This document shows, piece by piece, positions 1 through 35,970 of a stretch of 64,000 bases of DNA (its first letter is position 1; every line of letters begins with the position of its first letter). The translations under genes and the position numbers were made by a program. The DNA is from Lingula anatina (taxonomy: Eukaryota > Animalia > Brachiopoda), in assembly GCA_051362555.1 (NCBI GenBank), contig CM120644.1, positions 22,218,534 through 22,282,533 on the forward strand, given 5' to 3'. The notes beneath the pieces were generated by a model that saw only the letters and a program-made list of their open reading frames with translations, had not been told where the DNA came from and did not search any database.

Positions 1-3000
1 GCCAATAAAATACAAATGTATAAAATCAGGAATCTTTTGCCCTGTAGTAGCGCCATTGAAATATAAAGAATGAAAATTAAAATTACATGTTAGAGTAAAA
101 AATAGTTACTGCCGAGGGATAAAAGCTATTTAAAAATCGCTTACTACCCTTAAAAGCTAAGAGTCTCGAATTGCTAGGTAACAATTGAAAAAGGGTAGCG
201 TTATCCAAAAATGTGAGCCCATTGTGTCGAACCCCTATGGTTATCTTATAAAAAAGTTATTTTATGTAAGGTGGGTTCCCGGGGTGGTCTTAAGGGGGTT
301 CCCCACACATCGTTGGCATATATGTAAAACACGTTTTTCATCAGACTTCTGGCAGACAGACTCTTGGAATTTCTGAAATTTATAACCCCTACGCCAGAGT
401 CTCCAACTGTTATGCCCAGTACCCATAAATGGGGTGCTTATTATAGAAGGATTTCCAGGAATCCCTAAAACTATCCAAAAAGCACCCTGGGTCCATACAA
501 GACTGGGTTCCCATGCCTAGATCAATCCAACAGGATCGGTCTAACCCCATGGGGATTCACGCTAAATTGCTATCAACTTGAGTGGCTTAAATGTCTGTCA
601 TTTTTTGATAACCAAAACTTTAAAATGTAAGTAAACCAGTCAGATAATTTGCGTTTTTATCATTTTAAGGACAAAGGATAAATTTGTGTCGAATAAGCTA
701 AGATTAAGATGTTAAAACGTTTATTCTTTGAGAGACTTCACTTGACCTGTTCATCTTAATAACCCTTATTCTATCCCTCTGTGTAGTAGAAATGCAGATC
801 TATTTTGGAATAAATTTTATAAGCAAAAATTGTTTTTGTTTGTCTTTAAGAAAAGGATAAAAATTAAATTTATTTTAAATATGTAAAACATTTACAGGTG
901 TAACTTTGTTTCTTTCAAAGTTCCATACACGTTGCGTCTCGAATATAAATACAACGAAGGGTAATTTTTTATAAATATTACAGCTGGGACCGCCATGCCG
1001 TGTTTAACCCTTGCATGGATTTATTTAATTAAAGCAAAGCGAAGTCCGTGCATATTAGCAGTTCTTTACTCATTTCTATCTAGGGACACTTATAGTCCTA
1101 GTTTTGGATGTATTGCTTGATCATTGGGTGTCGAGTTTATATACTTTTTTTGACGTACATTCAATGCCTTCGCATATTTTAGTATAATAAATATGTACGC
1201 ATTTCACAGACTCATAAACAGATTTTACCTGACTCATAAAAATGAACAGGTGTCCTTTTTCAACATTAGGAAAATAAATAATTAACAATATGAATAAAAT
1301 ATCTTTTAAACGGTGACTACATTTGCAACCATTTCATTAAAAATAACATTACAAACACTTAAGAAGTCCACATACCAAGCTGACTTTCAAGTTAGTCTAG
1401 ATCTCACTCTGAGATCCGCGACATGAATGACGTGGAAAGCGTGCTTGAGATGATGAAGTAAACCGTCTTCTGATTTCTATATCATCAGCAGTACTCGTCA
1501 CCACTATCGCGATCCTTATGTTGCTGAAATGCATCCAAAGAAGAAAGAGATATAACTGTGATGCGCCAATAACTGGTGCGTCTTCCGTTAACGATAACAA
1601 GTCCAAAACGGGCAATGTGGATAATTCCATTTTCAAAATTTTAGTTTTCTTAATGTGAAATGTGCAAACGCTATCCTACTAGAATTTGTTGTCAAATTCC
1701 TTAATAGTACAACAAAAGAACCATAGAGTTCAGATCACAAATATGATCCCTAAACTTGAAAATTAATTTTAAGGAGTTTTTTATGCACTCGACTTGTTTT
1801 ATGACTTCATGACCTTACATGTAATTATATAACACAAGTTGACACGTGCAATTAGAGTAATTGAGATTTGTATGCACCAAGCAATAGTGCAGCACTGGAT
1901 CCACCTAAGATAAAAATTGGGATATAAGCCTGCTGAATAAGTATCTAGGGAGCAAACCTTTAGAGAGACCACTTGGGAGAGCCAACAACTCGGACGCCAG
2001 TTATAGGAGAGGATTAAGAAGTTTAAGACTTCACGTAGATCATGTAGTTAGGGAGCGTGAACAAAATACACCCCATTTCCATAGATTTTTAGATTGATCT
2101 ATCCCTGTGGGGAGTCTCACTAGATTACTGTCAGTTTGGCCGGCTTAAGCATCTGTCCCGCCTACTAAAAGCTGTAAGGGGGTAATTAACTATGGTGCCC
2201 GCTCGGCTGACTGCAATTTAGCGTGAAACCCAAGGGAGTTAGGTCGATCTAAATTTTAATCCCTGGATCGATCTAAATCTCTGGAAGTACACCCATAGAC
2301 CCTTAAACTGGTCATTATGTGTCCTTGGGTTTTCTTTGAGCAAGTTTACGTAAATCTGACACGAACCGTGGAATTTCGATCGGATTGCGTTTTGTGCAGT
2401 ATAAAAGTTATCATTACAATAGGTTGACAGGTCTCCTTACACTAATATTTTTTTCATACGGGATATAAGCTTGGGTCACAAAAAATATTAGACGCGTATA
2501 TATCGATATGCTTCTCTACAGATCGAAACCCTTTTCCCGCTTTGGTTGGAATCAGTGGCTAGCATTGACTCATTCTTTGTCAAGTAGAACATTTTTCTCT
2601 GTAGTCGTCAATTTTTTTGTGTGTGTCTTTTATTTGATTGTTATGTGTCAAATTATCCAGTTTCATCAATTGATTCTGATTGATTCTTGTTCTCTGTACA
2701 TTCGATTAACAATCTGGGTAGCTTCAAGAATAAAGTACACGTAACAACCATTAAGCTGAAATATATTTTATGACATAATTTAGGAAATAGCAAAAAAAGA
2801 GAGTTCTGATGATGAAAAAGAAATAAGAAACTTCGTAATTAATCACACGCATTTCCCTTTATGTGGTGGCAATTTTCACAAGAACGTATATGGCAATAAT
2901 GTGCGGGTGTCGTTTTTTGTCTCGTTTTACTGCTGCTGAGATGTCATTGTATTGATTTCTTAAGGTCTGATATCTAAAAATTCATGACAAACATTACTGC

Positions 3001-3509
3001 AATATGCACAACAGCAAATAAATGAATAAAGGGCAAATACGGAGAAGAGCATTTTTGTTGGAATGAAAAGTGGGAGATACCCAATTCTTTTAAGTATGAA
3101 GCTACATTTTTTAAAAATATTGATTTAAACCCCCTCTTCGAAAAGATCTACTCAAGAAAAAAATTGCTTGGGTACGGAATTGAGTACAGAATGAACTGGA
3201 GACACTTGGCTGGTCATTAAGTTTTCACGAAAATATGTCAGATAGCTTTAAACTGTCCTTGAAAGAGTAAAGATTTAGACAAACATTGACGGGGGAAATA
3301 TCCACAAAGAGTAAAGGGTTATTGCACCAACATCTTGTTGAAATTTTTACACTGCAATTCTATTTAAACTAATTGCCAAATTTAGACTTTCATTACATAC
3401 ATCTGATGTATTAGATGGCGTTGTGAATATGAGGCATGCGTTAGATTAAGTCTCTCTTACCTTCTATTACATTTCAGTAGAGACGAGAGATGAAGAAGTG
3501 GCGGTAACC

Positions 3510-4416
3510 ATGGCAACGGCAATAACACAGCCTGACTCTAAACAGGAAAATTTTTTCCGCATGACCATTCTGATTGTCGAGTATGGTTTGACGGTCTTGC
3601 AAGATGTTCTTCGGGAAGAGCTAACAAAAAGCTATTCCAGTGTTTTTGACCCCCAGAATGGGTTGCTATGTGGGGTGCTAGGTGATGGAACTGTCAGGAC
3701 AAAACTGGATAGACTAGTAAGATCAAGAATACTTAATGTACATCAACAGAACCAGCTGTATCCTGGTGGAAACCCCTCCCCATTAGGGACTGTTGGTGAT
3801 TTAGACATCACACTGACTGTGCTTTTGCTGAGAAACATCACAACATTGAATCCACGTCCAGGGTTGAATGCATGGGACAACCCCTCTGACACAGACACGT
3901 CAAGAGAAGCCACGATTGGGCGAGTTAAAAGATACCGAAATATTGTATACGGCCATGCAAACAATGCAGCAATTAGCGATCAAGATTTTAAAGCACATTT
4001 CTCAAGCCTTAAGTCCAACCTCCTGGCTCTCTCTAGTATGTACACCAGTGAGGACTATGATGACATCTTGACTCGACATCTTGATGCTACTTTACTGAAG
4101 GAAAACAAGGACATTTTGAAAACATGGCGTGATTATGACAACGATGTGAAAGAGCAGGTGAAGATCATGGAAACAAAACTCCTGGACGGCCAAAAAAGAA
4201 GTGAAGAGAACGTTCTTGGGGAGGTAAAAATTGGCACACAGCATACGCATAATAAACTTGAGGAAATCTCTGAAAGAATCACACAGGTGAACAAAGTTCA
4301 GTCAGAGCTGACCCACCAAGTCAGAGAGTTACAGGTGTGCGTGGAAGGGGTCAAAGGAGCACAGAATCGAGATTCACAAAGATGGTCTCTAGATCAACAA
4401 GTTCAGATTATCAAAG
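3510..4416 (+). CDS. Roco paralogue 1, coding exon 1: DZIP3-like HEPN domain followed by a coiled coil
   Basis: Motifs NFFRMTILIVEYG, DLDITLTVLLLRNIT and RVKRYRNIVYGH (HEPN R-x5-H) are typical of DZIP3/hRUL138-like HEPN domains, followed by a heptad-rich tail. Acceptor tttcag ends at 3477, ATG 3510 lies in ACCATGG context, donor AAAG|GTATTT follows 4416 (phase 1). The frame is open back to the acceptor, so further upstream coding exons are possible. Confidence 0.8.
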
Positions 4417-4785
4417 GTATTTATTTTATGCATTTAGATATTTTTTTCTTAAACTCACTAAAATATTGGGACCAGCATTAATGAAGTTCACAATACAGAA
4501 CTACCATTTCAGGATATGCCGATTGTGTTAAATTTTGCTGTTAGTTATGACGGCAGTTACTTCATGACTATTCACATGCAATGCAAATTGTCTTAAGTTA
4601 CCATTATATATGTAAATAAGATAAGGCAACTGTCAGGTTTTATGAAATGAACTGAAAAACATGTAGTCTTGGGTGACAGATATGTGTAAGGGTAGATCTA
4701 ATGGATATTTCAAGAAAACTTCAGTTTCCTTTAATGTTACATTAAAAGGAAATGTTTTGAAAAGTAAAAACGTTGAAATCATTAA

Positions 4786-5123
4786 AGGTATAAAACTGTT
4801 CGTTTTGGCCCAAAATGAATTTTCCTGGAGTAAACAACAATTTTCTCTTACTAACAAATGGTTAATGAATCCATTTCTACATTCAATGTTAGTCCCTCTT
4901 TATTTCTAAAAAGTTTGTTTTTTTTTGTTATAATCTCTTAAGAAATTATAAAAGAGCATAGCCATCTATGGGGGTCACGTGGTCCGATGACAAGCTCAGA
5001 TATCAGAATAATAGCTATAACTGCCGTTTTTGCGGTAAAACAGAATATATTATACTTCTTTGAGTTGTTTACAATGTTTTTATTGTGAAATATAGATCTC
5101 ATACGAAAAGTTCCTATATCCCT
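4786..5123. mobile_element. Non-autonomous TTAA-type (Kolobok-like) DNA transposon, short copy in intron 1
   Basis: Homologous to both ends of 39764-40833; degenerate TIRs; absent from the paralogous intron at ~55190. Confidence 0.65.
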
Positions 5124-5886
5124 TACCCAAATCAAATTTGCAAGTTACTTGTAGTAAGGGAACTAGCTGTCAATGAGAGTGATATCATATTCAGTAAAGT
5201 CACGTTTCCCACGTCTTTGAAGCATCCATAAAGTATAATAAAACCTAAGTAAAATTATCAAGCAAATGAAATGTGAACGAAAAGTATCAACGGTCTTTTA
5301 AAGAGAAAAAAAAACGAAAATTTGAATGCAGATAACTGATATTTACCACTGATAAAATACATATACAGTTTATTTTTTCACTTAAAAAGGGCTATTTCAA
5401 GCTTTTAAGCATTTTATAAGTAGTAAAAAGTACTTTGCAATACTTCTTTCTACTTAAAAACAGTAGAAAGTATTCTTATAATCTGTACTCCATAAGCAGT
5501 TCTATATTTTTCTTTCCACAGAGCTTTGAAAATACCATTTCTTCGCATGAAAGACTTCCCTCACAAACATTCCATCTTTGTAATTGATGAAAAACTAATT
5601 CCATACACTATTATATTTATTGCCATTGTGGATCAAGTTTTGCTTTCAGATGCAAGTAATATTTTCAATGTTTTAATGAGTGTTCCCGGTGCTAATATTA
5701 GTTGGAAAGGAGGAAATTGTCAGAAACGATTCACACAGGGTATTAACAGTCTTGCATAATATGCACCGCTAGTTTTGTTAGTAGTTACTGACGTAAAGTT
5801 ATAGTATGTTGTGTTATATAATGTCATTATCAAGTTACTTAATAAAATGCAAGTATGTCTAGATATTTCTTTATTCTGAATTCTAG

Positions 5887-6135
5887 GCTCAGTGGACAGT
5901 GAAATTTCAGCCACAATGACTGGCAGCGGGAGTGACAGAGAACCCGTGGCTGTTTTACCATCTCATATGGATGAAGAAGCAAGTAAGCACCAGACTCAGA
6001 CGCTGACCTTTGAAAACTCTGATGAACCACCATGTGTCTCAGCTGTACCTCATCCAGATGTCACCACCCCCCTGTGTGAAGACAGACACAAACACGATAT
6101 GAACACCAATGAAACTATAATGTCCCAGACAACAG
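5887..6135 (+). CDS. Roco paralogue 1, coding exon 2: acidic S/T/P-rich linker (83 codons)
   Basis: Acceptor ttctag|GC, donor ACAG|GTGATC, phase 1-1, open frame that joins exon 1 to exon 3. A decayed homologue lies at 56146-56389. Confidence 0.65.
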
Positions 6136-6921
6136 GTGATCACACTCATCCAATAATACCTGTTTGAAAAGCTACAAGTAACTAACGCTTTTAATTGTTC
6201 CCCCCTCCTTAATCAAGTTGCCAGGTAATGACTTACTCATCCTCAAGTGCCCGTTCGAGTAACTGAAACTCTTCATTTTTGACACCCCATTTATGAAGTT
6301 TCCCTCCATTAGTCAATAATTAAGCTACATACGTGCCGCAGGCCTAGGCCAGATTGAGAACCAGTCAGATTTTAATGGGCCTAGGATGGTGCTTTCAATT
6401 CGACATAATACGATTTATAAGATAGTAAGAATGAATTTACATTCTGATCTACTCAGATTTAAAATCAAGCTAGGATTGGAATGTCAGTGTGATCCAGTAA
6501 GATTTTAAATCGGGTTTTATATTAACTTTGACCTAGCCAGAAGTCTAGGTACTATTTTATTTTGCCCAGACCTTTTGAAATCTGACTACATAATATTGAA
6601 ATTTTAATATTAGTAAAGAAATAATAAGTGAATATATTCGTAAAAATGATAATACATAGTATGCTGTTTTTGTTTTGCTTTTGTTGTTGTTGTTGTTGCT
6701 CATTAATAAGTTAAGTCAAGATCATAGTAAACATTGTTTAATGCATAATCATAATGTAAAAATGCATAACAATTACAAAATATATACATGTGTTTGAGAA
6801 AGAAGAGGCAATATTTCTCCTTGCGCTCAAAAACCACTGAGAACCGAAACACACACACATACACATACACACATACAAGATAAATTATATCATATTAGTA
6901 AGACAGATGTATCCCTTTCAG

Positions 6922-9711
6922 TTACAAAGAGTGCACAGGACTATCAGGAGTGTGGAAAAGAGGACAGCATGGCTGAAGAATTTAAAGGAGGCGTGGAGGT
7001 ATTGCACTTTCTACGAGATTTGGAGAGAAGACCAGCAGACGACCAGACACCAATACCAGACATGGTCACCAAGTGTACAGTGCTGGAGCTAGCGTATCAG
7101 AACATTGACCACATCCCTAACACCATAGATAGATGCATCAATGTGAAGAGGATCAATCTGAGAGGGAACAAACTTTCGTCACTTCCTTGGTCGTTGTCTC
7201 AGTTAAAAAATGTCACATATATTAATCTCAGTCGGAATCAGTTCACAAAGCTCCCGGCCTCAGTGTGTTCTCTACCACATATAGGGAACCTGGACCTAAA
7301 GCATAACAAGTTATCCAGTCTTCCTCCCGATTTTAGTAAGTTGACCACACTGAAGAGTTTAGACCTCGGGTGTAATCAGTTCACAGAGCTCCCAGCCTCA
7401 GTGTGTGCTCTACCACATATAGAAAACCTGGACCTGTGGAATAACAGACTATCCAGTCTCCACACTGATATCAGTAAGTTGACCACACTGAAGAGATTAA
7501 ACCTTGGGGGTAATCAGCTCACAGAGCTCCCAGGCTCATTGTGTACTCTACCACATATAGAGAACCTGGACCTACATAAAAACAAGCTATCCAGTCTCCC
7601 TCCTTATATCAGTAAAATGACCACACTGAAGAGATTAAGCCTCAAATATAATATGCTCACAGAGCTCCCAGCCTCAGTGTGTGCTCTACCACACATAGAG
7701 AACCTGGACCTAGAGTTTAACAAGCTATCCAAGCTCCCTTCTGATGTCAGTTATATGACCGCACTGAAGTATCTGAATGTTTCCAGCAATAATATTACAC
7801 ATTTACCCCACCAGCTTGCTTCACTTACACTTCGTGATCTGTGTGTGGATGATAACCCCATCCAGCAACCACCCAAGTCAGTGTGTGAGGCAGGACAAGA
7901 CGCAATATTCAGATTCTTAACAGAACTCAAAGAATCAAAAGCAGTCAAGTCTTCCAGAATCCAAATAAACATCCTAGGAGAGACAGAAAGTGGGAAAACC
8001 AGTTTAGCGCGCTCCTTAAGGCATGACACCCCTATGTTGACTGATAAAGCTGATAGAACTAGAGTTGTGGAGCAATCACTGTGGGAAATTGAAAGGGGTG
8101 TCAGTTTTAACATCAATGACTTTGGAGGTCATGATGTGTACAGAGTTGGACACCGTATCTTCGTCTCACAGAACAGTATAGTTCTTGTCACCTTTGACTT
8201 GTCGACCTATGACACAAGCAGCAGATCACATTTTGGACGACATATTGGAATGTGGATAGACATGGTGCAGTCCCATAATCCAGGGGTGACAATTGCATTA
8301 GTTGGTACACATCTCGATAAAACTAATGAGTTGAACCGCAAGGCTGTCTGTGAATCTATTCAAGAAGCAATCACACATGAAAAGATATGCAGGCAAAAGT
8401 GGTATGAAAGGCAAATAAGAGATCTTAAGGAAAAAATACAGACCTCACAGAAAAACAGAAATCAAGGTCTGATTTCAGCATACAAGGAGACGATAGAATC
8501 ACTGGAGAATATAAGAGGATATGATGAATCAAGAATCCATCATTACATTTTCATGGTGAGTTCCAAGACCAAAGCAGGTTTAAGTGACCTTAAAGATTAT
8601 CTATCTACCCAAGCAAAGGAAAGAAGTGTTACCCTACCACAAGCCTGGCATGGAGCAGCAAAGATCATCTATGCAAAAAAAGAAAATAAAGCTGAAAGCA
8701 CCATTTGCAGGGAAAATATAACACAAGCCATACGAAACTCAGTTGAAGGTTTCAGAGGTACCAAAACATTCTTATGGATGACATTTCGTCAAAAACCAGA
8801 GGATGAAGTAAATGGTATCCTTGCTTACCTTGCCAACAGAGGTGATTTCATCTGGTATCCGAATAGTCCAATCCTTAGAAACACTATCTTCCACAGACAG
8901 GACGTTCTAGCTGATCTCCTCAAGGCAGTCCTCAACCACGATAAGGATAAATTTGAGTTTCTAAAACAAATCATCGTCAGTGAACCAATGGCAGAGAGAA
9001 TTAAAGAAGATTTCATCATGAGAGGAATTCTCTCTGTGCAGGTGATGGAGGCTCTATGGGAACCATTTGGTTTGACAGCCAGAGAAACCAGTGCAATGGT
9101 GGAGCTCATGCAGAGGCTGGAATTATGCTTCAAGGCGAACGAGGGCAAAGATGGTTACACGTTTCACTTTCCATGGCTACTGGAACAAAGCCGCCCACCA
9201 ATCATGGACACCAAGTGGCCTCACTCAGTACCACAGGACAGTACACAGCTTACCCTGAATGTGTATTTCCCATATCGCTGTCCTGATGGTCTCTATGAGA
9301 AATTGTCAGTGCGCCTTCATTCAACCCTGGGACACTTTCAGCCTATGAGGAGAGACTGGAGAGATGGGGTATTTGTGGACATGGCATCACACTGCATGCA
9401 AATGACCAGAAGCCAGACGGACAGAGACTGGGTGATCACCATTGCTGTCCGAGGTCAACATCTCCCAGACCTGTGGAGAACACTGCTCCAAAACCATGAT
9501 CACCTTATGGACATCCTGGAGGAAGATTGGCCTGGCTTACCACGTGACAAGTGCCTGGTGTGTCCTCACTGTACAAGTCTAGATGTAGAGCCCCCGACCC
9601 TGTTCCCTGGTGAAGTGATTGACCAGAAACCAGCCATAACTGTTCACTTGGTGCCATGTTGGAAAACTGGGGAACTAATATCAGCAGACCTAATATATCC
9701 CTATATGCCAG
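6922..9711 (+). CDS. MFHAS1: Roco paralogue 1, exon 3: 12 LRRs + ROC GTPase + COR (MFHAS1/MASL1-like)
   Basis: 23-aa LRRs; P-loop GETESGKTS, DFGG, VGTHLD; C-terminal EDWPGL...CPHC...FPGE...C...LIYP resembles the MFHAS1 C-terminus. Acceptor ccctttcag|TT, donor CCAG|GTAAGA. The symbol indicates family resemblance, not orthology. Confidence 0.9.
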
Positions 9712-9946
9712 GTAAGATATTTGATATTACCCCATTCCAACTAATGGTGTACATTCCAACAGTTACCTAACCAATGAATCCTTTGGGGATATGTGTAGAT
9801 AGAACTATATTGCATAAAAAACTGTGTAGCTAAAATGTGCCTAGTTCTTTCATTTATTTATCCCTTCAGGAGCCATTGATCAAATGCAATCTACACCTTA
9901 TAATACAGGTCACTTTTTTCATGTCTTTGCTGTTTATAATATTCAG

Positions 9947-10293
9947 GTTTCACTGCCATGAAACATCACCAAAAGCGTGCCCTGAAACAGCACATGGAGC
10001 TGCTGGTCAGTAACATTACCACGCCATGCCTGAGTTACCTGCTGGACAAGCTGATACAGGAAGACATCATCACTGACAGAGAGAAGGAGTATGTACGTTC
10101 TAAGCCGTCTACTGGGGACACAGAGGAGGTTGAGAGGGCAGCAGCAGCAGCAGCAGCCAGAGTGGTGTCTCCTGAACAGACAAGAACACTGCTCAGTATT
10201 CTGCTTACCAAAGAGAAGAGGGCATTCCAATGTCTATGTAGATGTCTGGAGAAGAATGGACAGGGATTTCTAGCAGAGCAGCTGAAAAGGTAA
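9947..10293 (+). CDS. Roco paralogue 1, exon 4: CARD (death-fold) domain
   Basis: Acceptor attcag|GT is in phase with exon 3. MKHHQKRALKQHMELLVSNI...LLDKLIQEDIIT..EKEYV...LLSILLTK..RAFQCLCRCLEKNGQGFLAEQL follows the six-helix CARD pattern (Apaf-1/caspase-9/RAIDD type). It may splice at 10289 to a terminal exon at 10549. Confidence 0.85.
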
Positions 10294-10638: not shown

Positions 10639-10892
10639 TCATTACTGTCTGGTGACTGTGACCCACTACTACGGCAGATATCCAATTCCATGGATGATGA
10701 TATTGATAACACTATGTCTTATTGGATCATTACTGTCTGGTGACTGTGACCCACTACTACAGCAGATATCCAATTCCATGGATGATGATATTGATAACAC
10801 TATGTCTTATTGGATCATTACTGTCTGGTGACTGTGACCCACTACTACAGCAGATATCCAATTCCATGGATGATGATATTGATAACACTATG
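10639..10892. repeat. 88-bp minisatellite, ~3 copies (probable 3' UTR of paralogue 1)
   Basis: Unit tctggtgactgtgacccactactacagcagatatccaattccatggatgatga(t/c)attgataacactatgtcttattggatcattactg repeated in tandem. Confidence 0.95.
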
Positions 10893-13597: not shown

Positions 13598-14987
13598 CAC
13601 ACACTGGACAAAAGAAGTGTCACCCCTACTGAGCCAATACTATGGGGGAGATAAATGACTGTGGAATGATATGCTCCTGGTATCATATTATTAACATCAA
13701 ATTTCACAAAAAATCACAAAATGAGAACAAAATATACATTCTACCAAAATATGCAGTTTCAAGTCCAAAATTAGTACTTAGTGGCATAGCCACGTGACCT
13801 AATAATAGGTGCCAGTCTACGAAGCAAGGTTTCATATAATTGTCTGATGCGTTCAGGGCTTATGCTGGCCCAAGGATGAAACACTGAATATAACAGAGTT
13901 TCTATGCTGGTTAGACGGGCATTTGTGAAAAGTTTTGACATATCATTCCACACATTTTCTATTATGTTTGCATCTGGACTCTGGGCAGGCCACATCACCC
14001 TGCGAATGTCCTGTTGGTCAAACCAATCATCAACTGCTCTGGGCCTGTGACAAGGAGCATTGTCATCCTGGTGAACAAATGGATAATTCCTGTCACCGAA
14101 CATGTTAGTAATAGATGGTAGCAAGCCTGACTCCAAAACATCGATATATTTCTAGTGATTCATGTTTCCATTAACCACTATCAATTCGCCCAAGCCATGG
14201 ATGCTGATGCAGTCCCACACCATGATGAATATGCTGCTCCGGGTTCGAAAATTCAGTGCATGTGGTTCAAAAATGCTTTACCAGCAGTTTGCCAGCATAG
14301 TACCCGTATGTCATCAGAGGTCAGACCAAAGCGACACTCATCAGAAAAAAATATATAGGACCAATTGTCATGAACTGTCCAGTTGTAGATCCTGTTGACG
14401 CTAGTTTACTCTACGTTGCCTGTTTTGTAACGATATAAGAGGTTTCAGTCTTGCTACCCTGCTGTACACTCTCAGAGCATGTAACCGACGCCTAGCAATT
14501 TTCACTGACACATTCTTATGTGTGAAATTGTTCCACTGTGTTGTCAACTGACAAGCAGTGTCGAACTTTGACAACCTGGACATCAAAATCAGTCGTCGGT
14601 CTTCAGGGCCAGTATTTTTTTCTTGGACGACCCATCAGAGGCAATTTGTCTCTTGATCCAGTGTTTCTATACCGAGACCAGACCCTCTGCACGGTTCTGA
14701 CTGAACAATTCAATTGTATCGATATTCTGACATTGCTTATATTCCGCCTCTTCAGGTTAATAACTTGCACCTATAACCGTCAAATAATTGCCTGTATCTT
14801 GCCATATTGGAGGAAGACAGGAATAACATTTGCTGTACATGTACAAGACCAACAATACAATTCCATGGTATAGCGGTTTTATACTCATTGGTCACATTAT
14901 AAGTAGACCAGGCATTATAAGTACCCAAGATCTGCCTACTTTTATTACTCTGAGGTAGGGGGTGACACTTCTTTTGTCCAGTGTGTG
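13598..14987 (-). mobile_element. Tc1/mariner (DD34E) transposon with disrupted transposase
   Basis: ~30-bp TIRs cacacactggacaaaagaagtgtcacccc flanked by TA on both sides. Minus-strand fragments FSDECRF and HQDDNAPCH...WPAQSPDANIIENVW with 34 residues between D and E; stops and frameshifts present. Confidence 0.93.
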
Positions 14988-17601: not shown

Positions 17602-18185
17602 GTGTAGTTTATATACTGTAGAATAACACAAGATAAAGATTAATCTTAAAAAAAGATACAGCTTGCATCTAAGTAATTATAGCTGCGAAAAATTCCAGTT
17701 TTATGTATTACAAAACAATAACGCACCATACTCTTTCTGTAAGTCCAGTCTGACAAAGGTACATGTAACAAAACACACCATTCAAGACCAGACATGAAGA
17801 TATACTATCCACTTAAAAATGTCCCAAAATCATATTTTTCTGCCCCTCCTCTCGCCCTACAGCCCCGTTAGTTATCTATACGCTGCGTTGTTACGAGCAC
17901 TGTCGAAATACGTACGTAAAATTATTTTAAGAGATTATTTAAAAAATTAAAATTTAGATCCTTAGTGTAAATGTATAAACAACAGGCGTTTCCTGAACTC
18001 GAAAGCGGGGGAGTATCGTTGTGACGGAATTAGGATGCAGAGAAGTAAATTAATTAAGCTTAGCACTGTATATCCATCAAAAATAGTAACGTATTGAATT
18101 CAGATCATTAAAAAAATATCTAAAATAAACAATGGACCTTTACATTGAAATACAGACAATAGTAATATGAACAGTACAATCTCTA

Positions 18186-18809
18186 GAGCGCTGAAGTTAG
18201 TGTCTAGTTTCTAGTTTCCAGTTTCGTTTTTCAAAAACGAACCTGGCAACCAGAAACTAGTGTCGTTTTTCAAAAACGAACCTGGCTACCAGAAACTAGT
18301 TTCGTTTTTCAAAAACGATTCTGGCAACCAGAAACTAGTGTCGTTTTTCGAAAAACGATTCTGGCATCCAGAAACTAGTGTCGTTTTTCGAAAAAGATTC
18401 TGGCATCCAGAAACTAGTGTCGTTTTTCAAAAACGATTCTGAGAAGCCAGAATCGTTTTTGCGGAGAGAAACAGGGGTGGGCAGAGGGATAAGCAAGCAG
18501 CGGTGAGCGTATACCGCGACTAGGTAACCCTCACCCCGAAAGCTGGGCAGGGTCTTTCGGTCTCTCCTCCACGTGCGCTGAGACCGAGACGTCCGCTGAT
18601 CGATGTCTATCGATGATGCGGTGACGTCGATCTGAGCACCGCAGCTAGACATCGATCGGCGGACGTCTCGAGAGGGCGTAACACCCTGTCCAGATACGCG
18701 GGGAGGGTTACCTGGTCGCGGTAGACACTAATGCATTGCCAGTTGCCTCTCCCTACGTCCACCCCAGTTTCTCTCAGCAAAAACGTTTCTGGCTTCTCGG
18801 AATCGTTTT

Positions 18810-18861
<52 letters not shown>

Positions 18862-19074
18862 GACACTGATTTCCGATTGCCAGAATCGTTTTTTAAAATT
18901 ATTATTCAATAAAATTAAAAACTATACCTCAAACTACAAAGGGTGAGCCTGAGGTTCCTTCCCCCTTCTTCCTCTCATCTGCCCAACGTTCACGGCTTAC
19001 GCTGTGAAGGCGGCCTGTGAAGGCGGCCGGTCATCTAGTCCTCACCGCACGGCGACAAAAAATAAATAAATAAA

Positions 19075-19131
<57 letters not shown>

Positions 19132-21080
19132 AACGTAACTCCCTGAATACCTACGCGGTGAAAGCTGCCTGTGCGCGCTGATGCGGATCAGCGGCCACAC
19201 GAGCGAGAGAGGCGTTATATTCAGCACAGCTTCCTCGGTGAAGGCTACCTGTACGCTGTAGGCAATAATCGGCGACCGTCTCGGTCTCAGCGCACGTGGA
19301 GGAGAGACCGTAAGACCCTGCCCAGCTTTCGCGGTGAGGGTTACCTAGTCGCGGTATACGCTCACCGCTGCTTGCTTCTCCCTCTGCCCACCCCTGTTTC
19401 TCTCCGCAAAAACGTTTCTGGCTCCTCAGAATCGTTTTTGAAAAACGACACTAGTTTCTGGTTTCCAGAATCGTTTTTCAAAAAAACGACACTGGTTTCT
19501 GGGCATCTGAATCGTTTTTAAAAAATTCTATAAATTCAAAAATTATACTTCAAACTACGAAGGGAGGCCCCGGTGGCCCCTTCCCCCCCCCTTCACCCTC
19601 ACCCTTATCCCCCCACCCCCACCCCCAGGTCCACTTAAGCCCCATTCCCTGCTTCCGCTGCGCAGGCTGCCTGTAACTGGTAGAGGCGGTCAATCGACCT
19701 CCCAGCGCGGCGAGGAAAAACCGTAACATCGTAAAACACCCTGTCAAGCTTCTGCGGTGAGAGTTGCCCGTACCCTGTAGGCAATAATCGGCGACTGTCT
19801 CGATCTCAGCGCACGTCGAGGAGAGACCGTAAAACCCTGCCCGGCTTTCGCGGTGAGGGTTACCTAATCGCGGTACACGCACCCCTGTTTCTCTCCGCAA
19901 AAACGATTCTGGCTTCTCAGAATCATTTTTTAAAAACGACACTAGTTTCTGGTTGCCAGAATTTGTTTTTCAAAAAATGACACTGGTTTCTGGTTGCCAG
20001 CATCGTTTTTCAAAAAACGACACTGGTCTCTGGGCATCAGAATCGTTTTTGAAAAATTCAATAAAATTAAAAATTATACTTCAAACTACGAAAGGAGGCC
20101 CCGAGGGCCCCTTCCCCTTCTTCAACCTCACCCTTATTCCCCCACCCCCACCCCCACCCCCACCCCCACCCCAACTTAAACTCCATTCCCGGCTTCCACT
20201 GTGCAGGCTGCCTGTGACTGGTAGCGGCGGTCAACTCAGCCTCCCAGCGCGGCGAGGAAAGACCGTAACACTGTAAACACCCTGTCAAGCTTCTGCGATG
20301 TGAGTTGCCCGTACCCCGTAGGCAATAATCGGCGACCGTCTCGGTCTCAGCGCACGTAGAGGAGGGACCGTAAAACCCTGCCCGGCTTTCGCGGTGAGGG
20401 TTACCGCTCCCTTCGACACGCTAGCCGCTGGTTGCCTCTCCCTCTGCCCACCCCTGTTTCTCTCCGCAAAAACGATTCTGTTTTCTCAGAATCGTTTTTG
20501 AAAAAAGACACTAGTTTCTGGTTGCCAGAATCGTTTTTCAAAAAACGACACTGGTTTCTGGTTGCCAGAATCGTTTTTCAAAAAACGACACTGGTCTCTG
20601 GGCATCAGAATCGTTTTTGAAAAATTCAATAAAATTAAAAATTACACTTCAGACTACAAAGGGAGGCCCCGGGGGCCCCTTCCCCCTTTTCAACCTCACC
20701 CTTATCCCCCCATCCCCACCCCCACTTAAACTTGCCTCTCCCTCTGCCCACCCCTGTTTCTCTCCGCAAAACGATTCTGGCTTCTCAGAATCGTTTTTGA
20801 AAAACGACACTAGTTTCTGGATGCCAGAATCGTTTTTCGAAAAACGACACTAGTTTCTGGATGCCAGAATCGTTTTTGAAAAACGACACTAGTTTCTGGA
20901 TGCCAGAATCGTTTTTGAAAAACGACACTAGTTTCTGGATGCCAGAATCGTTTTTGAAAAACGACACTAGTTTCTGGTTGCCAGGTTCGTTTTTGAAAAA
21001 CGACACTAGTTTCTGGTTGCCAGGTTCGTTTTTGAAAAACGAAACTGGAAACTAGAAACTAGACACTAACTTCAGCGCTC
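18186..21080. mobile_element. Foldback / Mutator-like non-autonomous element with modular TIRs
   Basis: Near-perfect long TIRs (gagcgctgaagttagtgtctagtttctagtttccagtttcg...) built from ~39-bp repeats. Direct repeat tacaatctcta on both flanks (TSD of 9-11 bp depending on the end chosen). No credible ORF. Confidence 0.88.
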
Positions 21081-29100: not shown

Positions 29101-29384
29101 ACCACCAGTCACACCGTCATTTCAGCCCAAAATTCTGAAATTGTCAAGGGGCTATGCATATCTCTAATATATTTTAGTAAAAAGAATAAAAGGAACCGTG
29201 AACTGCAGTCTGTCTTGGTGATATTTACTTCATTACACTGTTACATCAACGAAAAAGCTTGAATGAAAGCAACATTAATGGAAGGAAAACATCACACGGT
29301 TATAGGTAATTTGTCAAGATGGATATGATGTATAAGATAACATTGTTGATATTAGTCTTATATTGACCAAGATAAAGCCTATCT

Positions 29385-29452
29385 TACTTCTACGTTCCAA
29401 CTCAGCAGAGACGATGGATGACGAAGTGTCAGTAACCATGGCAACAGCAATT
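29385..29452 (+). pseudogene. 5' stub of the deleted HEPN exon of paralogue 2
   Basis: cagcagagacgatggatgacgaagtgtcagtaaccatggcaacagcaat aligns to 3475-3523; the sequence then jumps to homology with ~5135-5300. Confidence 0.75.
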
Positions 29453-30175
29453 ATTTTTTTTTAATATTCCAAGTTAGTTGAATTAGGGACACTAGCTGTC
29501 AATAAGAGAGATATCATGTTCAGTTTCCCACGTCCTCGAAACATCGTAAAAGTGTAATAAAACCTTAATAAAATCATCAAACAAATGAAATGTGAACAAA
29601 AAGTGTTAACGGCCTTTTAAAGAAAATTTTGAATCAAAATAACCTGTACCACTAATAAATTGCAGGGGATAGAGATACATCCGAGTTTAGAAAAATCCAG
29701 GCAATATGATTCAATAAAATTCCGATGCAGCTGAAAAAATATGTGAATATCGTAACAATATAAAAATGTATTATATGCTGTGTTTTTATCTTTTAAAGAT
29801 CATTAATTAGCAAGGGTAGGATTATAGGAACCGTAATATGTAATTTACCATTTCAATAAAGGAAAAATATGCATTACTATGACAACATATATAAATGCTT
29901 TTTCGCTAAAACCTAATGGGAATTATTCCCACAAAAGACAATAAAAATAATTACTGATACCTTAAAGCAGTTTTATGGAGTACAGGGTATACGAAAAATG
30001 AATTTGGGGATGAATCAATCAACTAGAATTCAGAAAATAGTCAAGAAAGGACTGCTATCCCGCTTTCCTCTATTCCAAAACCATTTCTATCATACCAAAC
30101 CTTCAAATATATCTCTTTCAGTAATGCAGAGCGCACAGGACTAGGACAGGACAGGAGTGTAGAAAAGAAGACACC

Positions 30176-33100
30176 ATGGCCGAAGAAGTTATAGGAGGCG
30201 TGGAGATATTAGACTTTCTACGAGATTTGGAGAAAAGATCAGTAGATGACCAGACACCAATACCAGACATGGTCACCAAATGTACAGTGCTGGAGCTAGC
30301 ATACAAGAACATTCAGCATATCCCTAACACCATAGATAGATGTATCGATGTGAAGAAGATTAATCTCACAGGGAATAAACTTTCATCCCTCCCTTGGTCG
30401 TTGTACGAGTTAAAAAAACTCACACATCTGAACCTCAATTTGAATAACTTCACAGAGCTCCCAGCCTCATTGTGTTCTCTACCACAAATAGAGTACCTGG
30501 ACCTAGAGTATAACAAGCTATCCAATATCCCTCCTGATTTCAGTCAGATAACCTCACTGAAGAGATTAAATCTCGGGTGGAATCAGTTCACAGAGCTCCC
30601 AGCCTCAGTGTGTGCTCTACCACTTATAGAGAACCTGGTACTCGCTCATAACAAGCTATCCAGCCTCCCTCTTGATGTCAGTAATATGACCACACTGAAG
30701 AGTTTAAACCTCGGGTGGAATCAGTTCACAGAGCTCCCAGCCTCAGTGTGTGCTCAACCACTTTTAGAGAACCTGGTACTCGCTCATAACAAGCTATCCA
30801 GCCTCCCTCTTGATGTCAGTAATATGACCACACTGAAGAGTTTAAACCTTGGGTGTAATCAGTTCACAGAGCTCCCAGCCTCAGTGTGTGTTCTACCACT
30901 TTTAGAGAACCTGGTACTCGCTCATAACAAGCTATCCAGCCTCCCTCTTGATGTCAGTAATATGACCACACTGAAGAGTTTAAACCTCGGGTGGAATCAG
31001 TTCACACATCTCCCAGCCTCAGTGTGTGATCTACCACATATAGAGAACCTACACGTAGAGTGTAACATGCTATCCAGTCTCCCTTCTGTTGTCAGTAAGA
31101 TGACCAAACTGAGGTGTTTATACCTCGGGTACAATGCTTTCACAGAGCTCCCACACTCAGTGTGTGCTCTACCACGCGTAGAGTACCTGGACCTTGAGCA
31201 AAACAAGCTATCCAGTCTCCCTCCTGATATCAGTAAAATGGCCACATTGAAGAGATTAAACCTCAGAAAAAATCAGTTCACAGAGCTTCCAGCCTCAGTG
31301 TGTGAGCTACCACATTTAAAGAACCTGGACCTACACCATAACGAGCTATCCATTCTCCCTCTTAATGTCAGTAAGATGACCACACTGAAGAGTTTTAACC
31401 TTGGGATGAATGCATTGACAAAGCTCCCAGCCTCAGTTTTTGCTCTTCCACACGTAGAAAACCTGGACCTAGAACAAAATAAGCTATCCAGTCTCCATAT
31501 TGATATCAGTCAGATGACCACACCGAACTATATGAACTATATGGACCTCCAGTTAAATCAGTACACAGAGCTCCCAGCCTCAGTGAGTGCTCTACCACGT
31601 GTAGAGTACCTGGACCTAGAGCAAAATAAGGTATCTAGTCTCCCTCCTGATGTAAGTAAGATGACAACACTGAAGAGTTTTAACCCCGGGTGGAATGAGG
31701 TAACAGAACCTTCAGTCTCAATGTGTGCTTTACGACATATAGAGTACTTGGACCTAAGCCATAACAACCTTTTTCGATTTCCTCCTGATGTCAGTAAGCA
31801 TACCACACTGAAGAGTTTGAACCTCAGGTGTAATCAGCTTTCAGAGCTCCCTGCCACAGTATGTGCTCTACTACATATAGAGAACCTGGTACTCACTCAT
31901 AACAAGCTATCCAGACTTCCTCCTGATGTTGGTAAGCTGACCACACTGAAGAATTTGAACCTCGGGTATAATCAGCTCACAGAGCTCCCAGCCTCATTGT
32001 ATGCTCTACCACATATAGAGAACCTGGACCTAACTAATAACAAGCTGTCAACTCTCCCTCCTGATGTAAGTAAAATGGCCACACTGATTTTTTTGAATAT
32101 TTCCAGCAATAATATCACACGTTTACCCCACCAGCTTGCTTCACTTAAACTTCGTTATCTGGATGTGCACAATAACCCCATCCAGCAACCACCCATGTCA
32201 GTATGTGAGGAAGGAAAAGAGGCAATATTCAGATACCTAATAGATCTTAGAGAATCGCAAGTGCTCCAGTCATGTAGAGTGCAATTAAACCTCCTGGGAG
32301 AAACAGAAAGTGGGAAAACCAGTTTAGCACGCTCCTTACGACATGGGACCCCTGTGTTGACTGATAGGGCTGATAGAACCAGAGTTGTGGAGCAATCTCT
32401 GTGGGAAATTGAAGGGGACATCAGTTTTAACATCAATGATTTTGGAGGTCACGAGATGTACAGAGTTGGACACTGTATATTCATCTCACAGAACAGTATA
32501 GTTCTTGTCACCTTTGACCTGTCGACCTATGACCCTTGCAGCAGATCCCATTTCAGACAACATATTGGAGCCTGGATAGACATGGTGCAGTCCCATAATC
32601 CAGGGGTGACAATTGCATTGGTTGGTACACATCTCGATAAAATAGATGAGTCGACCCGCAAGGCTGTCTGTGCATCTATTCAAGAAGATATCAAAGATGA
32701 AAGGATAACGAGGAAAAACTGGAGTGAAAGGCAAATGAGAGATCTTAAAGAAAGAATACAGTACTCACAGAAAATCAAAAATGAATGTCTGATTTCAGCA
32801 TACAGGGAGAAGATGACATCACTGCTGAATAAAGGTGGATATGATGAATCAAGAATCCATCCTTCCATTTTCATGGTGAGTTCCAAGACCCAAGCAGGTT
32901 TTGGAGACCTTACAGATTATCTAGCTACCCAAGCAAAGGAAAGAAGTGTTACCCTACCACAAACCTGGCACAAGGCAGCAAAGGCCATCTATGCAAAAAA
33001 AGAAAGCAAAACTGAAAACACACTTCACATTGAAGATATAAAACAAGACATAGGAAACTCTGTTGAAGGTTTCATGGATACCACAAAGTTCTTATGGAAC

Positions 33101-34025
33101 AAGTTTCGTCAAAGAACAGATGATAATGTAAATGGTATCCTTGCTTTCCTTGCCAACAGAGGTGAAATTATCTGGTATCCAAACAGTCCAATCCTCAGAA
33201 ACACCATCTTCCACAGACAGGAAGTTCTAGCTGATCTCCTGAAGGCAGTGCTCAACCACGATAAAGATGCGCTTTTAAAACAAATCATCTTAAGTGAGCC
33301 TATGGAAGAGAGAATTAGAGAAGATTTCAGCAAAAGAGGGGTTCTCTCTGTGCAGGTAATGGAGGCCCTATGGAAACAACTTAGTTTGACAGCCAGGGAA
33401 ACTAGTGCAATGGTGGAGCTCATGCAGAGGCTGGAGTTATGCTTCAAGGTGAATGAGGGCATAGATGGCGCCACATTTCATTTTCCATGGCTACTGGAAC
33501 TAAGCCGCCCAGCAATCCTCTATTCCAAGTGGCCTCAGTCCGTACCACAGGACACTACACAGCTTACCCTGAAAGTGTATTTTCCATACCGCTGTCCTGA
33601 CGGTCTCTATGAGAAATTGTCTGTGCGCCTTCATTCAACCCTTGGACTCTATCAGCCCATGAGGAGAGACTGGAGAGATGGGGTATTTGTGGACATGACA
33701 TCACACTGCATGCAAATAACGAGAAGCCAGACGGACAGAGACTGGGTGATCACCATTGCTGTCAGAGGTCAACATCTCCCAGACCTTTGGACAACACTGC
33801 TCCAAAACCATGACCACATCAAGGATATCATGGAGGAAGATTGGCCTGGCTTACCTTGTGACAAGTACCTGGTGTGTCCTCACTGTACAAGTTTAGATGT
33901 AGATACCCCAACACTGTTTCCTGGTGAAATGATTGAACAGCCCCCACTCATGACTGTTGCCAGGGTACCATGTTGGAAATCGGGAGAAATGATTCCAGCA
34001 GACTTAATAAATCCCTATATGCCAG
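30176..34025 (+). CDS. MFHAS1: Roco paralogue 2: 28 LRRs + ROC + COR (MFHAS1-like)
   Basis: Same ROC/COR motifs as paralogue 1. Acceptor ends at 30121, ATG in ACCATGG context, donor CCAG|GTAAGA. About 1395 aa together with the CARD exon. Confidence 0.9.
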
Positions 34026-34314
34026 GTAAGATTATCATTAGAAATATTTTGATATTATCCCAGTCCAAGTAATGATGTCTATTCCAAAAGCATGCCCTAC
34101 TGCTACAATTCACCTACCCAATGAATATACGGGCATTAGTTTTATCAGAAACCGGCGTTTAAAATGACAGCTACCCTTAGAGGGATATGTATAAAGTTAT
34201 ATTGTAAAGAAACTGAATGACTCAAAACGTCCCTTATTATTTCATTGTTTTGATTAACACCAATCTTCACTTTATCAAGTTGTTCATGCCCTCGTCTCAA
34301 TTATTCATTTATAG

Positions 34315-34652
34315 GTTTCTCAGCCATGAAACCCCACCAAAAGCGTGCCCTGAAACAGCACATAGAGCTACTGGTCAGTACTATTACTACCCCATGTCTA
34401 AGTTACCTTCTGGACAAGCTAATAGAGGAAGACATAATCACAGACAGAGAGAAGGAGTATGTTCGCTCAAAACCATCTACTGAGGACACAGAGGAGGCTG
34501 AGGGGGCAGCAGCAGCAAGTGTGGTGTCTCCTGAACAGACAAGAACACTGCTCAATATTCTGCTTACCAAAGAGGAGAGGGCATTTCAGTGTCTGTGTAA
34601 ATGTCTGGAGAAGAATGGACAGGGGTTTCTGGCTAAAAATTTGAAACGGTAA
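34315..34652 (+). CDS. Roco paralogue 2, CARD exon
   Basis: Acceptor ttatag|GT in phase; highly similar to 9947-10293; possible donor after 34648. Confidence 0.85.
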
Positions 34653-34899: not shown

Positions 34900-35970
34900 A
34901 ACGATGGCATTGATAACACTATGTCGTATTGGATCATTACTGTGACCCACTACTACGACAGATATCCAATTCCATGGATGATGACATTGATAACACTATG
35001 TCTTATTGGATCATTACTGTCTGGTGACTGTGACCCACTACTACAGCAGATATCCAATTCCATGGATGATGACATTGAAAGTACTATGTCATATTGGATC
35101 ATTACTGTCTGGTGACTGTGACCCACTACTACAGCAGATATCCAATTCCATGGATGATGACATTGATAACTCTATGTCTTATTGGATCATTACTGTCTGG
35201 TGACTGTGACCCACTACTACAGCAGATATCCAATTCCATGGATGATGACATTGATAATACTATGTCTTATTGGATCATTACTGTCTGGTGACTGTGACCC
35301 ACTACTACAGCAGATATCCAATTCCATGGATGATGACATTGATAACACTATGTCTTATTGGATCATTACTGTCTGGTGACTGTGACCCACTACTACAGCA
35401 GATATCCAATTCCATGGATGATGACATTGATAACACTATGTCTTATTGGATCATTACTGTCTGGTGACTGTGACCCACTACTACAGCAGATATCCAATTC
35501 CATGGATGATGACATTGATAACACTATGTCTTATTGGATCATTACTGTCTGGTGACTGTGACCCAGTACTACAGCAGATATCCAATTCCATGGATGATGA
35601 CATTGATAACACTATGTCTTATTGGATCATTACTGTCTGGTGACTGTGACCCACTACTACAGCAGATATCCAATTACATGGATGGTGACATTGATAACAC
35701 TATGAATGGGTTCAAAATTTTTGTTCCATGTATACAAATAAAAACAGGTACAAAATATAATAACTTCAACTTGCCAGTATTTCTAAAATACCAACCTTTA
35801 ATTTTCATTTTCCAGATTCCCAGCATGTTACGATAACTGAAATGCGAACTGCTGCAGCAGATATCCAATTCCATGGATGATGACATTGATAACACTATGT
35901 CTTATTGGATCATTACTGTCTGGTGACTGTGTCCCACTACTACAGCAGATATCCAATTCCATGGATGATG
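34900..35970. repeat. 88-bp minisatellite, ~9 + ~1.3 copies, interrupted at ~35704-35853
   Basis: Same unit as 10639-10892; the 88-bp period is also visible in the ORF track. Confidence 0.95.

What the first reader, a model, noticed from the sequence alone, without database searches (positions are those of the whole stretch)
3510..10293. Predicted HEPN-coiled coil-LRR-ROC-COR-CARD protein: an NLR-like receptor built on a Roco GTPase, with two effector domains
Seen: four ORFs listed separately join through canonical GT/AG sites, all phase 1, into one open frame (3510-4416, 5887-6135, 6922-9711, 9947-10293; 4293 nt, 1430 aa). Known: HEPN R-x4-6-H domains are RNases activated by dimerisation, ROC-COR mediates nucleotide-dependent dimerisation, CARDs recruit caspases or adaptors, and vertebrate MFHAS1 has neither HEPN nor CARD. 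Inference: a sensor (LRR), switch (ROC-COR) and dual effector (RNase plus CARD signalling) immune protein. I do not recognise this architecture as described.
Basis: partly seen in the sequence, partly recalled or inferred. Interest (0 to 1): 0.88.

Follow-up and report, generated by a model that had tools for sequence, protein, structure and literature searches.

The report
Brachiopod Roco GTPase with grafted RNase
A brachiopod gene from a large family of LRRK2-like GTP-switch proteins with variable sensor repeats and a cell-death adaptor domain likely carries a predicted RNA-cutting domain borrowed from other immune genes, a new combination of known parts that two neighbouring copies have since lost and whose job is untested.

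Summary
Real gene, correct model. The four exons join in frame (1430 aa) and match, without gaps, the Lingula anatina RefSeq model XP_013379136.1, named MFHAS1 (27 substitutions). Pfam confirms HEPN_DZIP3, LRR, Roc, COR and CARD; RNase and GTPase motifs are intact. RNA reads show junctions 2 and 3; the HEPN junction (4416/5887) had no coverage and rests on the RefSeq model, homology and a preserved frame. New here: the HEPN, coiled-coil and linker exons come from the 5' end of Lingula HEPN-coiled coil-TRADD-N immune genes and were spliced ahead of an LRR-ROC-COR-CARD gene's old start. Two tandem copies in the window keep only decayed remnants. It works like an NLR but is not one (no NACHT). 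Novelty is lower than claimed: Kaur 2021's supplements list bacterial LRR-Roc-COR-HEPN and a coral HEPN-coiled coil-TRADD-N-ankyrin-LRR-Roc-COR-kinase protein, and this scan noted Roc-COR-CARD and Roc-COR-HEPN proteins in other genomes. The exact HEPN-LRR-ROC-COR-CARD order was found in no paper searched and in one gene only. Switch-gated RNase plus CARD signalling is inferred, untested.

The parts
3478..4416 (+). Coding exon 1 (phase-1 acceptor at 3477/3478, ATG at 3510): HEPN domain plus long helix
   Evidence: Pfam; model
3666..4100 (+). HEPN_DZIP3 domain (Pfam span, aa 53-197; the folded domain starts near aa 10, nt 3537)
3936..3956 (+). R-x5-H motif, R143 to H149, the putative RNase site
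4086..4412 (+). Single long helix aa 193-301, predicted coiled coil
   Evidence: model; coiled-coil matches
5887..6135 (+). Exon 2, low-complexity linker, homologous (38-43%) to the linker of HEPN-TRADD-N-helicase/GTPase genes
   Evidence: spliced to exon 3 in RNA
6922..9711 (+). Exon 3: 16 codons of likely former 5' UTR, ancestral Roco start Met at 6969, N-cap, 11 LRRs, ROC, COR
7143..7898 (+). 11 LRRs of 23 aa (138-bp di-repeat)
7965..8318 (+). ROC GTPase with P-loop (aa 738-745), G3 DFGG (785) and G4 THLD (848)
8796..9683 (+). COR-A (8796-9173) and COR-B (9246-9683)
9947..10293 (+). Exon 4, CARD (9976-10284) and stop
29323..29697 (+). Copy 2 remnants: acceptor and first codons of the HEPN exon, then intron-1-like DNA, then a decayed small donor exon (29668-29697); the HEPN exon body and exon 2 are gone
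30122..34652 (+). Tandem copy 2: LRR (at least 23)-ROC-COR exon and CARD exon; phase-1 frame ahead of its own Met is broken
55098..56405 (+). Copy 3 remnants: intron-1-like DNA, decayed small donor exon (55892-55942) and frameshifted exon 2; no HEPN exon found upstream
56908..60173 (+). Tandem copy 3: LRR (4)-ROC-COR exon and CARD exon

Best explanation
This is a spliced brachiopod gene whose LRR-ROC-COR and CARD exons are joined in RNA and which likely also carries the upstream HEPN exon, giving a predicted intracellular immune receptor in which variable LRRs would sense a target and the Roco GTP cycle would bring two chains together to switch on a predicted HEPN RNase and cluster the CARDs. 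Origin (inferred from homology): the HEPN/coiled-coil exon and linker exon of a HEPN-coiled coil-TRADD-N gene were placed in front of an LRR-ROC-COR-CARD gene and spliced, phase 1 to phase 1, into the acceptor ahead of its old start codon; the unit was then duplicated in tandem, and only copy 1 kept the graft. Shown: exons, domains, motifs, junctions 2 and 3, homology of the graft, decay in copies 2 and 3. Inferred: junction 1, RNase activity, ligand sensing, control of HEPN pairing by the switch (most likely by proximity, helped by the coiled coil, not by direct allostery), CARD partners.
For: Gene: in-frame join; same-length RefSeq allele; RNA joints 2 and 3. Graft: exon 1 is 57-67% identical to the N-termini of six Lingula proteins that continue into RLR helicase, IIGP GTPase, CARD-NACHT or CARD and groups with them at 97/99 support; exon 2 is homologous to the linker in three of them, and homology stops at the end of exon 2; the exon-3 Met matches the N-termini of the other paralogs. 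Selection on the graft: 16 frameshifting indels in 674 aligned intron bases between copies 1 and 3 predict about 11 in the 907-nt HEPN exon, none is present (rough), while copy 3 exon 2 and the copy 2 lead-in are broken. Motifs: R-x5-H intact in both alleles and in 42 of the 45 HEPN hits by inspection of the list; P-loop, G3, G4 intact. Fold: the HEPN model (pLDDT 90.5) has Csm6 (Z 7.4, rmsd 3.6, 118 aligned) and AbiF (Z 6.8, rmsd 5.2, 150 aligned) as best matches. Immune-type evolution: 28 Lingula LRR-ROC-COR clusters; 11, at least 23 and 4 LRRs in the three copies; pN 0.51 at the two concave-face positions against 0.15 elsewhere; ROC-COR dN/dS 0.38-0.50 and CARD 0.12-0.27. Parallels with variable effectors: PMC8195603 and other animals' relatives with Death, caspase, OTU, GT4 or trypsin domains.
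Against: No read across 4416/5887; expression is very low in all 7 runs laid. Junction-3 reads come from runs where most reads are under 95% alike, so they may belong to paralogs. Two of three tandem copies lost the graft, a second RefSeq copy (P0001) starts in exon 2 and has no HEPN or CARD, and exon 3 keeps its own Met, so HEPN-less products are possible. Only 2 of 221 proteins held had both HEPN and ROC, and the second is decayed: the fusion is not conserved. No experimental test of a DZIP3-type HEPN RNase turned up (listing; PMC9646362 calls the motif putative). Fold Z scores are under 8, and Foldseek gave no match at E 0.001. pN/pS at the concave codons is only 1.2 and the pairs are not independent. 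The dimer state of the bacterial Roco goes with GDP or no nucleotide, not GTP.
Confidence: 0.5

Rival explanations
1. The fusion is made, but HEPN is paired by its own coiled coil or acts as an RNA-binding sensor or decoy domain; the Roco switch controls only the CARD, and the two halves work largely independently.
For: A 109-residue helix and about 100 residues of low-complexity linker lie between HEPN and the LRR; the same HEPN-coiled coil module sits on unrelated switches (helicase, IIGP GTPase, NACHT), so it does not need ROC-COR; HEPN-fold proteins without nuclease role (Roquin, sacsin, MtlR) are among the fold matches (their roles recalled).
Against: The R-x5-H motif with the following Asn is kept; a constitutively paired RNase would likely be toxic, which argues for some gate (inference).
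Confidence: 0.25
2. The graft is a passing product of exon shuffling: transcribed rarely, with most protein starting at the exon-3 Met, and on its way to loss as in copies 2 and 3.
For: Loss in 2 of 3 tandem copies; very low RNA depth; P0001 lacks it; a second Lingula HEPN-Roco junction, P0077, is decayed at both the HEPN motif and the P-loop.
Against: The 907-nt exon is free of frameshifts and stops in two alleles after a divergence that put about 16 frameshifting indels in 674 intron bases; exon 2 is spliced to exon 3 in RNA.
Confidence: 0.15
3. The HEPN exon is a separate gene or an intron-1-terminated short transcript, and the RefSeq model merged two genes.
For: Junction 1 has no read support; intron 1 holds four AATAAA/ATTAAA hexamers; the exon-1 frame runs 21 codons into the intron to a stop.
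Against: Exon 1 and exon 2 homologues lie in one chain in three other Lingula genes; exon 2 has an acceptor and is spliced to exon 3; the start of the HEPN exon was duplicated with the Roco unit in copy 2.
Confidence: 0.1

Closest known systems
Lingula anatina MFHAS1-like LRR-ROC-COR(-CARD) proteins, RefSeq XP_013379136.1 and paralogs
   Same: XP_013379136.1 is this gene (98% allele, same exons); paralogs share LRR-ROC-COR and often CARD.
   Different: The database name hides the HEPN; no other full paralog held has an intact HEPN. No paper in the library holds both Lingula and MFHAS1.
DEDD2-clade TRADD-N expansions with N-terminal HEPN-coiled coil (Kaur et al. 2021, PMC8195603; sections 11 and 15 read, supplement rows seen)
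   Same: The donors P0030, P0031 and P0073 are listed there as HEPN(+coiled coil)+TRADD-N+helicase or GTPase. A coral protein, XP_020604217.1, is listed as HEPN+coiled coil+TRADD-N+ankyrin+LRRs+AP-GTPase+COR+kinase+propeller.
   Different: This gene has no TRADD-N, ankyrin or kinase, ends in CARD, and its accession is not in the supplement files searched (file 13 not searched, file 4 cut when stored).
Prokaryotic LRR-AP-GTPase(Roc)-COR-effector systems (PMC8195603)
   Same: Variable LRR, Roc-COR switch, exchangeable effector; two Thioflexothrix proteins are listed as LRR+AP-GTPase+COR+HEPN.
   Different: There HEPN is C-terminal and alone; here it is N-terminal, of the animal DZIP3 type, gained separately, with a CARD at the other end.
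HEPN-NACHT-LRR NLRs of corals and bivalves (PMC9646362, PMC8662601; passages read)
   Same: N-terminal DZIP3-type HEPN with R-x4-6-H on a nucleotide switch with LRRs.
   Different: Switch is a STAND ATPase, LRRs are C-terminal; here the switch is a Roco GTPase behind the LRRs.
Trichoplax and brown-algal ROCO repertoires (PMC4104024, PMC11378527; passages read)
   Same: Expanded kinase-less Roco genes; CARD and death domains in Trichoplax; selected concave LRR sites in algae, proposed immune receptors.
   Different: No HEPN is named in the passages seen.
Human MFHAS1/MASL1 (PMC3995007, abstract)
   Same: LRR-ROC-COR without kinase; binds guanine nucleotide, which alters its complexes.
   Different: No HEPN or CARD (recalled); single gene; orthology not tested here.

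Membership tests
Roco (ROC-COR) GTPases | ROC followed by COR in one chain | tested here: met
   Roc and COR-B above cut-off, COR-A below cut-off at E 3.7e-7, in order, in one exon
Roco (ROC-COR) GTPases | Intact G1, G3, G4 motifs | tested here: met
   aa 738-745, 785-788, 848-851
Roco (ROC-COR) GTPases | GTP binding, hydrolysis and nucleotide-dependent change of oligomer state | not testable with these tools
   needs biochemistry
MFHAS1 orthologues | LRR-ROC-COR without kinase | tested here: met
   nearest Atlas cluster is named MFHAS1 homolog, score 0.92
MFHAS1 orthologues | Orthology to vertebrate MFHAS1 in a tree | not tested
   the tree held Lingula rows only
NLR (NACHT/NB-ARC-LRR) | STAND NTPase domain | tested here: not met
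   no NACHT or NB-ARC match in any exon or in the whole protein
NLR (NACHT/NB-ARC-LRR) | C-terminal sensor repeats, N-terminal effector | tested here: not met
   LRRs are central, before the switch; effectors at both ends
DZIP3/hRUL138-like HEPN | Profile match | tested here: met
   140 bits, cut-off 27
DZIP3/hRUL138-like HEPN | R-x4-6-H motif | tested here: met
   R143-x5-H149, both alleles
HEPN RNases (Csm6, AbiF, Cas13) | HEPN helical fold | tested here: inconclusive
   Csm6 and AbiF rank first and second but at Z 7.4 and 6.8, under the level the tool calls clear
HEPN RNases (Csm6, AbiF, Cas13) | RNA cleavage by a two-domain composite site | not testable with these tools
   needs an assay; the two-domain site is established knowledge, recalled
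DEDD2-clade TRADD-N proteins | TRADD-N domain | tested here: not met
   donor proteins match the window only over exon 1, exon 2 and a small remnant; their TRADD-N region has no match; that region is TRADD-N-like in the donors
CARD proteins | Profile match | tested here: met
   53.4 bits, cut-off 23.9; same in copies 2 and 3
CARD proteins | CARD-CARD binding to a caspase or adaptor | not tested
   partner unknown

The most novel reading that the evidence does not exclude
Brachiopods have built an NLR-equivalent receptor family on a Roco GTPase, and this member gates an RNase and a CARD with the ROC-COR cycle: the HEPN module was grafted onto Roco genes twice in Lingula (this gene and the decayed P0077) and separately in a coral and a bacterium, and the enzyme gives a direct read-out of which ROC-COR state is the active one.
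Probability: 0.25. Interest if true: 0.75.

Novelty: new variant of a known kind. Interest (0 to 1): 0.5.

Why it matters
If the fusion works as inferred, it is an animal immune receptor that uses the LRRK2-type switch in place of the NLR ATPase and drives two outputs. An RNase that needs two domains to pair would report directly whether the ROC-COR dimer or monomer is the active state, a debated point for LRRK2. Apart from function, the window preserves a readable record of how an effector exon was gained ahead of a receptor gene, duplicated, and lost again in two of three copies. It is one gene in one species and the parts list was known, which limits the reach.

Tried and rejected
No genome is held for this window, so the genome-wide count of copies rests on protein databases. 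One search was swamped by repeats at 2086-2502 and 4588-5421 and showed no splice joint (30 joint rows hidden); one search left out exon 1, and no loose end at 5887 was among the rows shown (49 hidden). HEPN homodimer prediction (aa 8-215, two copies): no verdict, score 0.00 in both runs, alignment not used; not counted either way. Foldseek gave no match at E 0.001 for either model; the first wide fold search was filled by coiled coils, so the HEPN domain was refolded alone. The ESM Atlas showed no HEPN-bearing Roco cluster among the rows listed (only clusters of 50 or more members). Searches for HEPN plus ROC elsewhere: a HEPN profile hit 2 of 173 ROC-COR proteins (the best 150 of 1513 representatives plus 23 Lingula proteins), both from Lingula; none of the 43 and 7 long HEPN hits carried a Roc label. 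These searches are shallow: they missed the coral protein, and cluster representatives can hide fused members (P0072 hid under P0001). Pfam was run on 32 of the 150 representatives. Paper searches (listings): HEPN+ROCO 5 papers, HEPN_DZIP3 3 (19), Lingula+immune+HEPN 3 (26), Roc-COR+CARD+invertebrate 5 (35), Lingula+MFHAS1 0 (51), brachiopod+NACHT+RIG-I 4 (61), Roco monomerisation 29 (86), HEPN+MFHAS1 0 (94), DZIP3+HEPN+RNase+NLR 5 (98), Lingula+Roco 3 (103); none of the passages read describes HEPN-LRR-ROC-COR-CARD. Gerdol et al. 2018 on the Lingula immune genes is not held and may mention this family. Rejected: 'NLR' as a family label; 'categorically new'; a recent arrival of the HEPN exon at copy 1 alone (remnants in copies 2 and 3 show it came before the duplications). 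Offsets for copies 2 and 3 were one base off and were redone.
Full report
Observation. Pfam finds HEPN_DZIP3 in exon 1, LRR, Roc and COR in exon 3 and CARD in exon 4; COR-A is below its curated cut-off, the others above. Since all introns are phase 1, any subset of exons stays in frame, so the join needed other support.

Identity. The nearest proteins are all from the brachiopod Lingula anatina (28 of 28 hits). One cluster member, P0072 = XP_013379136.1, is 1430 aa long and differs from the joined model at 27 positions without a gap, so NCBI's pipeline reached the same model on another allele and named it MFHAS1. That is a prediction, not a transcript. Raw RNA reads show the 6135/6922 joint in two runs (6 and 2 reads) in which the laid reads over that region appear to be the close ones, and the 9711/9947 joint in two runs (2 and 4 reads) where paralog reads dominate. 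The 4416/5887 joint was not seen; none of four runs had depth at the end of exon 1. Expression is low in all 7 runs laid.

Anatomy. Residues 10-190 fold as a compact helical domain (pLDDT 90.5) whose best structural matches are the HEPN proteins Csm6 and AbiF, at modest Z. The R143-x5-H149 motif is intact. A single helix runs from 193 to 301, then about 100 residues of low-complexity linker, an N-cap, 11 LRRs, ROC with intact G1, G3 and G4, COR and a CARD.

Surroundings. The window holds three tandem LRR-ROC-COR-CARD genes that form one clade with P0001-P0004 and P0072 at 100/100. Their ROC-COR and CARD parts are under purifying selection (dN/dS 0.38-0.50 and 0.12-0.27), while LRR number differs (11, at least 23, 4) and change is concentrated at two concave-face positions (pN 0.51 against 0.15 elsewhere; pN/pS there only 1.2, pairs not independent). 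Only copy 1 has a HEPN exon.

Origin. Exon 1 is 57-67% identical to the N-termini of six Lingula proteins that go on to an RLR-type helicase, an IIGP GTPase, CARD-NACHT or CARD, and groups with them (97/99). In three of them the exon-2 linker follows, and homology ends at the end of exon 2, just before their TRADD-N-like region. Kaur et al. list these three as HEPN(+coiled coil)+TRADD-N proteins. The Met at 6969 lines up with the N-termini of the other Roco paralogs, so the 16 codons before it are likely old 5' UTR. Copy 2 keeps the acceptor and first codons of the HEPN exon, then jumps to intron-1-like DNA, and its frame ahead of the Roco Met is broken. Copy 3 keeps intron-1-like DNA and a frameshifted exon 2. 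Both keep a decayed piece of a small donor segment that copy 1 has deleted. So the graft came before the duplications and survives only in copy 1. The intron indel rate between copies 1 and 3 (16 frameshifting indels in 674 bases) would give about 11 hits in the HEPN exon on one lineage; there are none (aligner-dependent, rough). This argues that the graft is being kept as coding sequence.

Distribution. A HEPN profile hit 2 of 173 ROC-COR proteins: P0072 and P0077. P0077, also Lingula, joins half of a HEPN of another subfamily (87% to P0037) to a Roco of another subclade, with both the HEPN motif and the P-loop decayed; it may be a second graft or a gene-model error. Relatives in other animals end in Death, CARD, caspase, OTU, GT4 or trypsin domains (32 of 150 scanned), so the Roco platform with swappable effectors is widespread.

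Mechanism. Most likely (0.5): LRR engagement shifts the ROC-COR nucleotide cycle, chains come together, the coiled coils pair, two HEPN domains complete an RNase site, and the CARDs cluster to recruit a caspase or adaptor. All of this is inference from domain order and from known families. The direction is open: the bacterial model Roco is a dimer with GDP or no nucleotide and a monomer with GTP (abstract of PMC5714945), and the long tether makes control by proximity more plausible than allostery. Rivals: independent halves or a non-catalytic HEPN (0.25), a fading graft (0.15), two genes (0.1).

Comparison. It is a Roco protein and a DZIP3-type HEPN protein; it is not an NLR and not a TRADD-N protein. 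HEPN on NACHT-LRR is described in bivalves and other invertebrates (passages of PMC9646362 and PMC8662601); the HEPN survey lists CARD, NACHT and LRR but no Roc fusion for this family in the passages seen (PMC3710099); CARD with ROC-COR is described in Trichoplax (PMC4104024 passages). HEPN with LRR-Roc-COR is listed for a bacterium and, with TRADD-N, ankyrin and kinase, for a coral. The order HEPN-LRR-ROC-COR-CARD and the expansion of this family in Lingula were found in none of ten paper searches, but the main Lingula immunity paper could not be read, and one supplement file of PMC8195603 was not searched and another was cut.

Verdict. A real gene, a new variant of a known kind, interest 0.5: well supported as a structure and as an evolutionary record, confined to one gene, with its most interesting claim untested.

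Noticed in passing
window 3490-3507: A five-codon upstream ORF ends two bases before the ATG at 3510 and could damp translation; copy 2 has an in-frame ATG there instead.
   Followed up: no
window 3477/3478: The HEPN exon has a phase-1 acceptor with an open frame up to the ATG, so it is a symmetric phase-1 exon suited to shuffling; the upstream exon was not found.
   Followed up: partly
P0077 (XP_013421888.1): Second Lingula HEPN-Roco junction from different subfamilies on both sides, decayed at the HEPN motif and the P-loop.
   Followed up: partly
P0074 (XP_013404860.1): Lingula model with a protein kinase ahead of LRR-ROC-COR-CARD, 1752 aa: another N-terminal addition to the same platform, or a merged model.
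   Followed up: no
window 10639-10892, 34939-35704, 60229-60808: An 88-bp tandem repeat (2.9, 8.7 and 6.6 copies, 97-99% alike) lies behind each gene copy, far more alike than the genes themselves, which suggests homogenisation; RNA reads cover it.
   Followed up: no
window 50269-52939 (-): Broken non-LTR retroelement (endonuclease and reverse transcriptase matches) about 2 kb upstream of the copy 3 remnants.
   Followed up: partly
window 13774-14151 (-): DDE transposase fragment.
   Followed up: no
window 18184-21082: Nested direct and inverted arrays of a 39-41-bp unit, likely a transposon-derived satellite.
   Followed up: no
window 2086-2502 and 4588-5421: Short repeats with high RNA depth from elsewhere in the transcriptome.
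   Followed up: no
P0099, P0114, P0115, P0116, P0122, P0123, P0082: LRR-ROC-COR relatives ending in GT4 glycosyltransferase, OTU, caspase or trypsin domains; P0082 is from amphioxus.
   Followed up: no
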